DNA of 64,000 bases from the human T2T-CHM13v2.0 reference genome, Homo sapiens. The notes beneath the pieces are model-generated. The model made no database searches and had not been told where the DNA came from. It saw only the letters and a program-made list of their open reading frames with translations. Positions 29,247 through 32,100 of this stretch are shown piece after piece. Made by a program: the position numbers and the translations under genes. The stretch is from contig CP086569.2 in the NCBI GenBank assembly GCA_009914755.4, forward strand, positions 11,296,001 through 11,360,000, given 5' to 3'. Each line of letters begins with the position of its first letter. Positions within the stretch are counted from its first letter, which is position 1.

Positions 29247-29554
29247 CTAGGGTTAAGGCTGGTGTTAGGGTTAAGGGTTAGGGGTTAAGTTTAGGGTTAG
29301 GAGTTGGAGATAGGGGTTGGGGTCAGAGTTAGGAGTTAAGAGTCAATGTTTAGAGTTAGGGGTTAAGAGAGGTTAGGGGTTAGGGATAAGGGGTTAGGGT
29401 TGGATTAGTGTGAGGGTGAGAGTTGTGGTTAGGGGTTAGGCTTAGGGGTTACAGTTAAGGGTTAAGGGTTAGGGTTAGGGGTTAGGGTTAGGGTCAGGGG
29501 TTAGGGGTCAGGGGTTAGGGGTCAGGGTCAGGGGTCAGGGTCTGGTTCAGGGGT
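29247..29554 (+). repeat. Degenerate interstitial telomeric repeat array, (TTAGGG)n-like on the + strand
   Basis: ctagggttaaggctggtgttagggttaagggttaggggttaagtttagggttagg...ggttagggttaggggttagggttagggtcaggggttaggggtcaggggttaggggtcagggtcaggggtcagggtc. Confidence 0.95.
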
Positions 29555-32100
29555 TCCACTCTGTGAGTTGTCTATTTACTCTGCTGACTGTTCCCTTTGC
29601 CATGCAAAAGCTGTTTAGTTTAATTAAGTCCCAGCTATTTATCTTTGTTTTTATTGTATTTACATTTGGGTTCTTGGTCATGAAATCCTTGCGTATGTCA
29701 ATGTCTAGAAGGTTTTATCGATTGTTACCTTCTAGAATTTTTATAGTTCAGGAATTAGATTTAAGTTCTTAATCCATCTTGAGTAGATTTTTGTATAAGA
29801 TGAGAGATGAGAATCCAGATTTATTCCCCTACATGTGGCTCACCAATTATCCCAACATCATGTATTGTAAAGGGGGTCCTTTCCCCACTTTATGTTTTTG
29901 TTTACTTTGTCGAAGATCAGTTGGCTGTAAGTATTTGGGTTAATTTCTGGGTTCTCTCTTCTGTTTCATTGGTCTATGTTCCTATTTTTAAACCAGTACT
30001 TTGGTGTTTTGGTAACTGTGGCCTTATTGTACAGTTTGAAATCAAGTAGTGTGATACCTCCAAGTTCTTTTTGCTTAGGCTTGGTTTGGCTACATGGCTC
30101 TCTTTTGGTTCCATATTAATTTTAGAATTGTTTTTGTAATTCTGTGAAGAATGATGGTGGCATTCAGATGGGGATTGCATTGAATTTGTAGATTGCCTTT
30201 AACATAATGGTAATTTTCACAGTATTGGTTCTACCCATCCATGAGCATGGGGATGCGTTTCCATTTGTTTTTGTCATCTATGACTTCTTTTCTTTCTTTT
30301 TTTTTTTTTTCCCCAGAGGGAGTTTCACTCTTGTGGCTGAAGTGGGAGTGCGATGGTGTGATCTCAGCTCACTACAACTTCTGCCTCCCGGGTTCAAGCG
30401 ATTCTCGTGCCTCAGCTTCCCGAGTAGCTCAGATTATACGCATGTGCCACCGTTCTTGGCTCCATCTATGATTTCTTTCAGTAGTGTTTTGTAATTTTCA
30501 TTGTAGAGGTCTTTTGATTCCTTTGCTAGGTATATTCCTAAGTTTTGTTTTTTTGTTGTTGTTGTTTTTTGCAGCTATTGTAAAAGGGGTTGAGTTCTTG
30601 ATGTGATTCTCTGCTTGGTAGCTGTTGATGTATAGAAGAGCTACTGATTTGTGTCCATTAATCTTGTATCTGGAAACTTTGCTGAATTCTTTTATCAGTT
30701 CTAGGAGCTTTCTAGAGGAGTCCATAGGGTTTTCTAGGCAAAAGATCATATCATCAGCAACAAGTGACAGTTTGACTTCCTCTTTACCGATTTGGGTTTC
30801 CTCTATTTCCTTCTTTTGTCTGATTGCTCTGGCTAGGACTTCCAGTACTATGTTGAAGAGGAGTGGTGAGAGTAGGCTCCTCGTCTTGTTCCAGTTCTCA
30901 AAGGGAATGCTTTCACTGTTTCCCCATTCAGTATTATGTTGGCTGTGGGTTTGTCATAGATGGCTTTTATTACATTAAGTTATGTCCCTTGTTTGCCTAT
31001 TTTGCTGAGAGCTTTAATCATAAAGCAATGCTAGATTTTGTCAAATGTTTTTTCTGCACCTGTTGATATAATCATGTTAGATTTTTTTAATTCTGTTTAT
31101 TTGGTGTATCACATTTATTGACTTGCATATGTGAAACCACTCGTATATCATTGGTATGAAACCCACTTGATCATGGTGGATTATTTTTTGATATGTTGTC
31201 GGATTCAGTTAGATAGTATTTTGTTAAGGATTTTGGCATCTGCGTTCATCAAGGATATTGGTCTGTAGTTTTCTTTTTTGGTTATGTCCTTTCATGGTTT
31301 TGGTATTAGGGTGATGCTGGCTTCATAGAATGAATAAGGGAGGGTTTCTTCTTTCTCTGTCTTGTGGAATAGTATGAAAAGTTGGGTATCATTTCTTCTT
31401 TGAATGAAAGAAGACATTCTTTGAATGTCTGGTAGAATTCTGCTGTGAATCTGTCTGGCCCTCGGCTTTTTTTTGCTGGTAATTTTAAAATTAAAATTTC
31501 AGTCTTGCTGCTTGCTTTATTGGTCTGCTTGGGGTATCTAATTATTCCTGATTTAAGCTAGGAGAGTTGTATTTTTCCAGGAATTTATCCAACTCTTCTA
31601 GGTTTTGTAGTTTATGTGCCAAAAGGTGTTCATAGTACCCTTGAATAATCTTTATTATTTCAGTGGTGTCAGTTGTAATATCCCCTGTTTCATTTCTTAG
31701 TGAGGTTATTTGGATTTTCTCTCTTCTTTTCTTGGTTAATCTTGCTAATGGTCTATCAATTTTATTTATCTTTTCAAATAACCAACTTTTTGTTTTATTT
31801 ATGTTTTGTATTTTTTGTTGTTGTGTCAATTTCATTTAGTTCTGCTCTGATCTTGGTTATTTCCTGTGTTTGCTGGGATTGGGTTTGGCTTGTTCCTGCT
31901 TCTCTAGTTCCCTGAGATGTGAACTTAGATTGTCTGTTTGTGCTCTTTCAGACTTTTTGACGTAGGTTTTTAGGACTACAAAGTTTGCTCTTAGCAGTGC
32001 CTATGCTGTATCCCAGAGGTCTTGATAGGTTGTGTCATCCAGTTCGAAGAAATTTTTTACATTTCCATCTTGATTTCATTTTTCACCCAATGCTCATTCT
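29555..32100 (-). mobile_element. L1 (L1P-type) ORF2 region in antisense, truncated on both sides: its 3'-most ~600 bp are missing at the telomere-repeat junction and it is 5'-truncated in ORF2 at ~32100
   Basis: Antisense L1 ORF2 sequence: ccatccatgagcatggggatgcgtttccatttgtttttgtc...cttccagtactatgttgaagaggagtggtgagag... The minus-strand ORF at 31542-31835 encodes ...[55 protein letters not shown]..., which is L1 ORF2. Confidence 0.92.
30291..30460 (-). mobile_element. Partial Alu (right arm plus poly-T) inserted in the L1, with a ~15-bp target-site duplication
   Basis: T-run followed by ccccagagggagtttcactcttgtggctgaagtgggagtgcgatggtgtgatctcagctcactacaacttctgcctcccgggttcaagcgattctcgtgcctcagcttcccgagtagc. 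The flanks catctatgacttcttt and catctatgatttcttt form the duplication. Confidence 0.85.

What the first reader, a model, noticed from the sequence alone, without database searches (positions are those of the whole stretch)
29520..29600. 3'-truncated L1 butted directly against the telomere-like array
The antisense L1 that starts at 29555 lacks its own 3'UTR and last ~600 bp. Its ORF2 C-terminal sequence begins immediately after the last TCAGGG unit. Retrotransposition cannot produce a 3' truncation. The junction therefore reflects a breakpoint: a translocation or duplication boundary onto an old telomere, or chromosome healing. It is not an L1 insertion event.
Basis: seen in the sequence. Interest (0 to 1): 0.5.

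Follow-up and report, generated by a model that had tools for sequence, protein, structure and literature searches.

The report
Fossil telomere fused to broken L1
An old chromosome end (subtelomere plus about 300 bp of telomere repeats) is joined at its tip to the middle of a long-dead L1 element; the scar has since been copied to several places in the genome, and this kind of duplication boundary is already known.

Summary
A degenerate (TTAGGG)n/TCAGGG array (29248-29553, G-strand on +) abuts an antisense L1 that starts at 29554, not 29555. The L1 starts at ORF2 codon 1036/37 of 1275. It lacks about 0.93 kb in L1HS terms (717 nt of ORF2, the stop codon and the 3'UTR), not ~600 bp. There is no poly-T and no target-site duplication.

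The left flank (28536-29247) is genuine telomere-adjacent DNA in its native orientation, so the L1 sits on the distal tip of a former chromosome end. That orientation excludes chromosome healing.

Seven independent metagenome contigs (six labelled human gut, one unlabelled) carry the identical junction at 86-96% identity. The junction is therefore real, arose once, and was spread by segmental duplication. An eighth contig (L003) holds the same L1 copy with the same premature stop codons but no telomere array; there the L1 runs on into its own 3' part. So the L1 was resident and dead when it broke.

Verdict: a telomere-to-break fusion marking a duplication boundary. It is a known class (interstitial telomere tracts next to subterminal/TERRA-promoter-like sequence), of low to moderate interest.

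The parts
21933..28535 (+). Context: array of ~195-219 bp GC-rich tandem repeats on the proximal side of the fossil chromosome end. This flank varies between copies of the family.
   Evidence: TRF. Contig L009 shares this flank back to 28288, whereas L001 diverges from the window at 28535.
28536..28830 (+). Subterminal (TAR1 / TERRA-promoter-type) repeats: CpG-rich 29-mer-like units, then at least 4 copies of a GGCGGAGC..GTTCTCCTCAGCACAGAC unit.
   Evidence: The pattern matches 4 times against 0 expected, at 28648, 28694, 28748 and 28794. Sequence read. GC is 0.60-0.66.
28831..29247 (+). 'Pre-tel' telomere-adjacent sequence in native orientation (its telomere lies to the right).
   Evidence: Published chromosome-end primers match in collinear order. 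Subtel2 has 2/23 mismatches at 28967-28989. XqYq_F has 1/20, 2q/10q_R 2/19, 9p_R 3/22 and 13q-R2 4/22; for these four the best of 10 shuffles still needs 5-6 edits. Primer sources: PMC2847243, PMC12361433, PMC9946831.
29248..29553 (+). Fossil telomere: a degenerate (TTAGGG)n array with the G-strand on +. It is very degenerate on the proximal side and becomes regular TTAGGG(G)/TCAGGG(G) units from ~29455 to the end.
   Evidence: GC skew is +0.58 to +0.70. The array is conserved unit by unit in L001.
29552..29555 (.). The junction, between 29553 and 29554. The ancestral sequence is ...TCAGGGG|TCCCACTCTGTGGG, with at most 2 nt (TC) that could come from either partner.
   Evidence: The junction is identical in the window and 7 contigs. 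The intact same-subfamily L1 L002 reads TTTTCTCCCACTCTGTGGG there.
29554..32095 (-). L1 fragment (here L1#1): ORF2 codons ~258-1036/37, 3'-truncated at the junction. It is old and dead, with 47-56% amino-acid identity to L1HS ORF2p, about 16 in-frame stops and several frameshifts.
   Evidence: tblastn. The 5' limit is set by the start of the 158-bp duplicated block at 32096.
30293..30461 (-). Partial Alu (poly-T plus right arm) inserted into L1#1, with a ~17-bp target-site duplication (30275-30292 and 30462-30478). It predates the spread of the family.
   Evidence: Sequence read. Contigs L001, L004, L005 and L006 extend into or across it.

Best explanation
This is the scar of one ancient end-joining event. 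A chromosome end carried normal subterminal repeats and 'pre-tel' sequence but only about 300 bp of variant-rich telomere repeats. Its tip was joined to a double-strand break inside a resident, long-inactive L1 (ORF2 codon 1036/37). The join used at most 2 nt of microhomology (TC).

Everything to the right of 29554 (the rest of that L1, an older L1, GTF2I-like exons) is the captured chromosome fragment. The telomere became interstitial. The composite was then copied to several genomic sites by segmental duplication.

Shown: the anatomy, the orientation, that the junction arose once, and that the L1 was already dead and once continued past the break. Inferred: the joining pathway (NHEJ, alt-EJ or microhomology-primed replication cannot be told apart) and the age (roughly 10-20 million years, from 2.3-4.6% divergence between copies at the usual hominoid neutral rate).

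It is a structural relic, not a device. By analogy with similar loci it may bind CTCF/cohesin and be transcribed into TERRA-like RNA; this was not tested.
For: (1) The flank is native telomere-adjacent DNA, oriented so that its telomere points at the L1. Primers that span real subtelomere-telomere joins put ...CTCATG on the same strand as the G-rich repeats, as in the window.
(2) The array is degenerate proximally and regular distally, as at a real telomere start.
(3) The L1 is 3'-truncated at ORF2p 1036/37, with no poly-T.
(4) Seven independent contigs share the identical junction at 86-95.6% identity.
(5) Contig L003 is the same L1 copy: 96.3% identity over 731 bp with no gaps, and shared premature stops at ORF2p 831, 846/848, 935 and 983. 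It has no telomere array and continues into ORF2 aa 1081-1161.
(6) L003 is no further from the junction-bearing copies (2.3-3.7%) than they are from each other (2.3-4.6%).
(7) Interstitial telomere tracts flanked by subterminal-like sequence at duplicon boundaries are a described class (PMC4032850; bioRxiv 10.1101/2025.05.15.654290). Short telomeres are known to fuse with non-telomeric breaks using about 1-2 nt of microhomology (PMC2847243).
Against: The unbroken state rests on a single 967-bp metagenome contig (L003), whose protein cluster has only one member. L003 is not fully intact: it has a 141-bp deletion that spans the breakpoint. None of the contigs has a chromosomal location, and a host label ('human gut metagenome') exists for six of the nine fetched contigs, L003 among them. 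None matches the window better than 96.3% (L003; 95.6% for a junction-bearing one), so the window's own locus, and even its species, are not confirmed. The tree is star-like with few informative sites, so the order of events is not resolved. The joining pathway cannot be deduced from a 0-2 nt overlap.
Confidence: 0.8

Rival explanations
1. Endonuclease-independent L1 retrotransposition at a dysfunctional telomere. The 3' G-overhang annealed inside an L1 RNA and primed reverse transcription, producing (TTAGGG)n followed by a 3'-truncated antisense L1 with no poly(A) and no target-site duplication.
For: The orientation is exactly what this mechanism predicts. Three-prime-truncated, duplication-less L1 insertions exist in the human genome (PMC1920257). 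Telomere ends serve as primers in NHEJ/p53-deficient cells (PMC4014453; PMC12871754). In the window the array ends in TT, the kind of primer end those authors discuss.
Against: A junction-less contig (L003) shares at least 3-5 premature stops with all junction-bearing copies and is as close to them as they are to each other. The L1 was therefore already dead and genomic when the lineages split, not a fresh cDNA. L003 also carries the 3' L1 sequence that a telomere-primed copy would never have had. The ancestral junction base is C (TCCCAC), not the window's TT.
Confidence: 0.03
2. Chromosome healing: telomerase added repeats de novo to the broken L1.
For: Telomere-like repeats abut a truncated element directly.
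Against: The polarity is wrong. The L1 lies 3' of the G-rich strand, and all matches are on the + strand. The array is continuous with native subterminal and pre-tel DNA on its other side. It is most degenerate far from the L1, the opposite of a tract seeded at the L1.
Confidence: 0.01
3. Secondary deletion. The telomere had already become interstitial through a different junction, and a later deletion running from within the array to within the L1 created today's junction.
For: Interstitial telomere tracts are unstable. Only about 300 bp of array is left. The neighbourhood shows other rearrangements (a 158-bp duplication flanking a GC-rich block).
Against: It needs two events where one suffices. 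All 8 copies share the junction, so any such deletion must predate the whole family. L003 shows the L1 side was once continuous with its own 3' part rather than with other DNA.
Confidence: 0.08
4. Insertional capture. A detached chromosome-end fragment was inserted into a break in the L1, so the L1's 3' remainder lies beyond the left end of the subtelomeric block.
For: L003 could then be the unoccupied site. The left flanks of the block differ between copies (L001 against the window and L009).
Against: No antisense L1 3' fragment occurs in the 29.5 kb to the left in the window or in the 3.2 kb to the left in L001.
Confidence: 0.06

Closest known systems
Subtelomeric-type interstitial telomeric sequences at duplicon boundaries (Stong et al. 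2014, PMC4032850; the '66 ITSs adjacent to TERRA-like promoters' family in T2T-CHM13, bioRxiv 10.1101/2025.05.15.654290)
   Same: A degenerate array of a few hundred bp. Diverged 61-mer/29-mer and pre-tel sequence on the proximal side, in native orientation. Position at a duplication boundary. Multi-copy, with ~90% identity between internal copies and ~85-90% to terminal copies, matching the 86-96% and ~87-95% seen here.
   Different: Nothing in kind. What is added here is base-level resolution of the distal junction (inside a dead L1, 0-2 nt overlap) and a candidate progenitor copy.
Fusion of short dysfunctional telomeres with non-telomeric breaks in human cells (Letsolo, Rowson & Baird 2010, PMC2847243)
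   Same: A telomere with few, variant-rich repeats joined to unrelated DNA with about 1-2 nt of microhomology. The 21q-group subtelomere family used in that assay (primer Subtel2) is the family present here.
   Different: Those are somatic, single-molecule events that usually delete into the subtelomere. This one is germline, fixed, retains ~300 bp of array and was later duplicated.
Endonuclease-independent L1 retrotransposition at telomeres (Morrish et al. 2007, as summarised in PMC4014453 and PMC12871754; genomic examples in Sen et al. 2007, PMC1920257)
   Same: The arrangement is identical on paper: G-strand repeats followed by antisense L1, with no target-site duplication and no poly(A).
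   Different: The L1 here was already a decayed genomic copy, and a relative retains its 3' part. No reverse transcription is needed.
Human 2q13-q14 ancestral telomere-telomere fusion
   Same: A fossil telomere with flanking subterminal repeats, internalised by a fusion.
   Different: That site has two head-to-head arrays, (TTAGGG)n-(CCCTAA)n. Here there is a single array fused to non-telomeric DNA.

Membership tests
Subtelomeric-type ITS at a segmental-duplication boundary | Degenerate (TTAGGG)n-like array of a few hundred bp | tested here: met
   29248-29553. TRF; 9 matches against 0.63 expected; unit parse.
Subtelomeric-type ITS at a segmental-duplication boundary | Subterminal (61/29-mer, pre-tel) sequence on the proximal side, in the orientation found at real chromosome ends | tested here: met
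   Published chromosome-end primers match collinearly. Subterminal repeat unit occurs 4 times.
Subtelomeric-type ITS at a segmental-duplication boundary | Belongs to a multi-copy duplicated family, with the array at a block boundary | tested here: met
   Seven paralogous contigs share the junction. One relative lacks the subtelomeric side (L003). Proximal flanks differ between copies.
Subtelomeric-type ITS at a segmental-duplication boundary | Subtelomeric or pericentromeric chromosomal location | not testable with these tools
   No reference-genome coordinates are available. The surrounding satellites are only suggestive.
Chromosome healing (de novo telomere addition) | The broken sequence lies 5' of the G-rich repeats on the same strand | tested here: not met
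   The L1 lies 3' of the G-strand array.
ENi L1 retrotransposition at a telomere | Antisense L1 following G-strand repeats, with no poly(A) and no target-site duplication | tested here: met
   This feature is not specific, since a random break gives the same picture.
ENi L1 retrotransposition at a telomere | The L1 is a new cDNA copy made at the time the junction formed (no older genomic copy sharing its defects and extending 3' of the junction) | tested here: not met
   L003 shares stops at ORF2p 831, 846/848, 935 and 983 and continues to aa 1161.
Canonical (TPRT) L1 insertion | Intact 3' end with an A-tail (a T-run on this strand) and flanking target-site duplication | tested here: not met
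   The L1 ends at ORF2 codon 1036/37. The junction reads GGGGTT|CCAC, with no T-run.
Telomere-telomere fusion ITS (2q13 type) | Head-to-head inverted arrays | tested here: not met
   All telomere-repeat matches are on the + strand.
Short ITS inserted at a break by telomerase | Short, near-perfect repeat tract with no subtelomeric flank, interrupting otherwise continuous sequence | tested here: not met
   The array is 306 bp and degenerate, has a subterminal flank, and the sequences on its two sides are unrelated.

The most novel reading that the evidence does not exclude
Both repair products of a single ancient double-strand break may survive. In L003, the only junction-less relative, the same L1 has a 141-bp deletion (ORF2 codons 1034-1080) between two copies of a 10-nt direct repeat (TGTCTGTTCA). 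The telomere junction falls inside that deleted interval, 14 nt from its edge. One reading is that a break at this spot was repaired on one chromatid by microhomology-mediated deletion (the L003 type) and on the other by capture onto a short telomere (the window type). An unbalanced segregation then kept both, seeding the duplication family.
Probability: 0.2. Interest if true: 0.45.

Novelty: new member of a known kind. Interest (0 to 1): 0.25.

Why it matters
The locus documents at base resolution how one subtelomere-derived duplication family began: a very short telomere captured a broken chromosome fragment, and the composite then spread. That supports the accepted model of subtelomeric and pericentromeric duplication; it does not change it. 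It is also a useful caution. The arrangement looks exactly like telomere-primed L1 retrotransposition, and only comparison with related copies tells the two apart. Fossil telomeres of this kind may be fragile or transcribed, but no new mechanism is implied.

Tried and rejected
- Exact junction 22-mer in metagenome contigs and genome contigs: 0 hits. A copy-specific L1 24-mer then found L001 but nothing in genome contigs.
- Exact-protein look-ups of four window ORFs next to the junction: none on record.
- Search for the missing L1 3' part elsewhere in the window: the only other antisense L1 3' pieces (51752-53591 and 36521-36633) overlap the retained part or belong to other elements. L001's left flank has none.
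- Dating the L1 from stop-codon density: about 16 stops in 770 codons implies 16-18% decay in my simulation. This conflicts with the 10.7-13% distance to L002, an apparently independent copy of the same subfamily. I therefore do not rely on an absolute age, only on the shared stops.
- Rfam scan of the window: one borderline tRNA hit far from the junction, not confirmed by ARAGORN.
- TRF did not call the 61-mer repeats; a pattern search did.
- Morrish 2007, Kopera 2011, Khan 2006 and Linardopoulou 2005 are not held in the library, so they are cited only through papers that summarise them.
- Cluster look-up gave no organism names for the NCBI-genome members.

Full report
**1. What is at the site**

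On the + strand the order is as follows.
- About 195-219-bp GC-rich tandem repeats run to 28535.
- CpG-rich subterminal repeats occupy 28536-28830. They include four copies of a GGCGGAGC..GTTCTCCTCAGCACAGAC unit, against 0 expected by chance.
- About 420 bp of unique sequence runs to 29247.
- A telomere-like array spans 29248-29553.
- AT-rich L1 sequence follows.

GC falls from about 0.6 to 0.33-0.37 across the junction, and GC skew peaks at +0.7 in the array. TTAGGGTTAGGG with up to one mismatch occurs 9 times against 0.63 expected, only here and only on the + strand. The array is very degenerate on its left and consists of regular TTAGGG(G)/TCAGGG(G) units from about 29455 to its end. That gradient is the one seen at the start of a real telomere.

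**2. The L1**

I had no repeat library. I wrote human ORF2p and the L1HS 3' end from memory and validated them against solved structures.
- The protein is essentially identical to 8UW3 chain A over 1-1275.
- The DNA tail encodes ORF2p 1007-1275 with 267/269 identities. Its 3'UTR part remains unvalidated.

tblastn maps ORF2p 268-1037 to 32066-29553 on the minus strand, at 47-56% identity with many stops and frameshifts. A direct PDB search places the last residues at 966-1037. blastn ends at reference nt 90 of 1027, which is window 29556.

The element therefore lacks 239 codons, the stop codon and the 3'UTR. There is no T-run at the junction.

The L1 carries a partial Alu with a ~17-bp target-site duplication. 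It ends 5' at about 32095, where a fragment of an older antisense L1 begins.

**3. The left flank is a real chromosome end in native orientation**

Published primers designed on extant human telomere-adjacent DNA match collinearly.
- Subtel2 of the '21q group': 2/23 mismatches at 28967-28989 (primer from PMC2847243).
- XqYq_F 1/20, 2q/10q_R 2/19, 9p_R 3/22, 13q-R2 4/22. For these four, shuffled primers (10 shuffles each) never did better than 5-6 edits (primers from PMC12361433 and PMC9946831).

Primers that span real subtelomere-telomere joins (15q_R, 1q_R) put ...CTCATG on the same strand as the G-rich repeats, as in the window. So the array belongs to the left-hand sequence, its former terminus pointed right, and the L1 is attached to the distal tip.

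This excludes healing by telomerase, which would place the repeats 3' of the broken L1. It also excludes a head-to-head telomere fusion.

**4.

G-strand repeats followed by a 3'-truncated antisense L1 is exactly what endonuclease-independent, telomere-primed L1 reverse transcription would make.
- Such insertions are 3'-truncated and lack target-site duplications; 21 human loci are documented (PMC1920257).
- Telomeres are documented primers (PMC4014453; PMC12871754).

So 'retrotransposition cannot produce a 3' truncation' is not true in general, and the rival needed a test.

**5. Related copies**

The exact junction 22-mer found nothing. A 24-mer carrying this L1 copy's private mutations found a metagenome contig, L001. 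L001 matches window 30405-28535 at 94.7% and includes the junction. Its far end looks bacterial, so that contig is chimeric beyond the primate part.

A protein search with an antisense-frame ORF next to the junction gave a distinct top group (77-91% identity) above a continuum of generic L1 hits. Several of these proteins begin with telomere-repeat peptide (..GQGQGSHS..). I fetched their contigs, five of them labelled human gut metagenome.

L004-L009 and L001 all align across the junction at 86-95.6% identity. All read ...TCAGGGG|TCCCACTCTGTG(G/A)G. Several points follow.
- The junction is real, arose once, and is now multi-copy. The 90%-identity clusters have up to 29 members.
- The ancestral base at 29555 is C, which matches L1 (an intact L1 of the same subfamily, L002, reads TTTTCTCCCAC). 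The L1 therefore starts at 29554.
- At most TC could come from either partner, since a TCAGGG unit also starts with TC.
- L009 shares the window's satellite flank, whereas L001 does not and diverges at 28535. Copies therefore differ proximally.

**6. The unbroken L1**

Contig L003 (967 bp, human gut metagenome) matches window 29562-30292 at 96.3% with no gaps. It shares premature stops at ORF2p 831, 846/848, 935 and 983 with the junction-bearing copies. L002, a separate copy of the subfamily at 85% identity, shares only 983.

Upstream of the equivalent of window 29568, L003 has no telomere repeats. It has antisense L1 encoding ORF2p 1081-1161, up to the contig end.

In the L1 part, L003 differs from junction-bearing copies by 2.3-3.7%, and they differ from each other by 2.3-4.6%. 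The L1 was therefore a resident, already inactivated element that once continued past the break. This refutes the retrotransposition rival and supports a break in pre-existing DNA.

At about 1.0-1.3e-9 substitutions per site per year (established hominoid rate; inference), the family is roughly 10-20 million years old.

**7. An unexplained detail**

L003 is not fully intact. It lacks 141 bp (codons 1034-1080) between two copies of a 10-nt direct repeat, TGTCTGTTCA. The telomere junction falls inside that interval, 14 nt from its right edge.

If the two events were independent, the chance of the junction falling inside the interval is about 4% (141 of ~3,400 bp). One break repaired in two ways would explain it. 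The evidence is a single short contig, so I treat this as a hypothesis.

**8. Caveats**

- The related sequences are short metagenome contigs (six of nine labelled human gut) with no chromosomal position.
- None is the window's own locus: best identity is 96.3% (L003), or 95.6% among junction-bearing contigs, and the window's ORFs are not on record.
- The window is primate (Alu, TAR1-type repeats) but its species is not established.
- My stop-codon estimate of L1 age (16-18% decay) disagrees with the 10.7-13% distance to L002. I rest nothing on absolute L1 age.
- Within 29.5 kb to the left in the window and 3.2 kb in L001 there is no L1 3' remainder. This argues against, but does not exclude, insertion of a subtelomeric block into the L1.

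**9. Comparison with what is known**

Internal telomere-like tracts flanked by diverged 61-mer/29-mer and pre-tel sequence at duplicon boundaries are well described.
- Such copies are ~90% alike among themselves and ~85% like terminal copies, and they bind CTCF, cohesin and RNA polymerase II (PMC4032850).
- A T2T-CHM13 survey lists 66 such tracts next to TERRA-like promoters and calls them a segmental-duplication family derived from recombination involving subtelomeres (bioRxiv 10.1101/2025.05.15.654290).
- Fusion of short telomeres to non-telomeric breaks with ~1.7 nt mean microhomology is documented in human cells (PMC2847243).

The locus fits this class on every feature I could test. It is a member of a known kind and of modest interest.

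Noticed in passing
window 32096-32253 and 33457-33614, with 32254-33456 between them: A 158-bp piece of the older antisense L1 is present twice as a direct repeat (142/158 identical). The two copies flank a 1.2-kb block that is mostly GC-rich ~350-bp tandem units. The first copy abuts the 5' end of the truncated L1, so that end may also be a rearrangement junction rather than a normal nested insertion.
   Followed up: partly
L003:1-967 (equivalent to window 29568-30292 plus L1 3' sequence): The only junction-less relative has a 141-bp in-frame deletion (ORF2 codons 1034-1080) between 10-nt direct repeats. Its edge is 14 nt from where the telomere junction sits in the other copies.
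   Followed up: partly
window 36099-36254 and 38066-38185 (+): Two diverged copies of a GTF2I/GTF2IRD2-like first coding exon (MAQVAVSTLP...SRMVVT.L.SA..S), each ending at a GT donor. The first holds an 18-bp tandem expansion (36127-36193). No further exons of the gene are in the window. The comparison used protein sequences recalled from memory.
   Followed up: partly
window 12849-21863: About 9 kb of 18-bp (and 36/37-bp) minisatellite, GCCCCAGGTGGACACCAG, present in both orientations with a switch near 15.2 kb. It suggests a large inverted duplication of the array.
   Followed up: no
window 21933-28535: A 6.6-kb array of ~195-219-bp GC-rich units, each ending in a T-run, directly adjoining the subterminal repeats. 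It is shared by contig L009 but replaced by unique sequence in L001.
   Followed up: partly
window 53760-57388 and 60712-62404: Several kb of ~75-bp tandem repeats built around a palindromic core (GGGGGTGTACACCCCC), in both orientations.
   Followed up: no
window 58626-58692 (-): Borderline Rfam tRNA hit (31.1 bits against a threshold of 29) lying between the 75-bp repeat arrays. ARAGORN finds no tRNA there.
   Followed up: yes
L001:4375-5037: The far end of metagenome contig L001 looks like AT-rich bacterial coding sequence with a ribosome-binding site, joined to primate DNA. It is probably an assembly chimera. Only L001:1-1855 was used for conclusions.
   Followed up: partly
window 29555 and the L1 part generally: The window's copy has the longest private branch in the family (21-34 differences per 731 bp against the others, compared with 17-24 for L001). 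No exact match to its ORFs is on record, so it is either an unusually diverged paralogue or not from the same species as the contigs.
   Followed up: no
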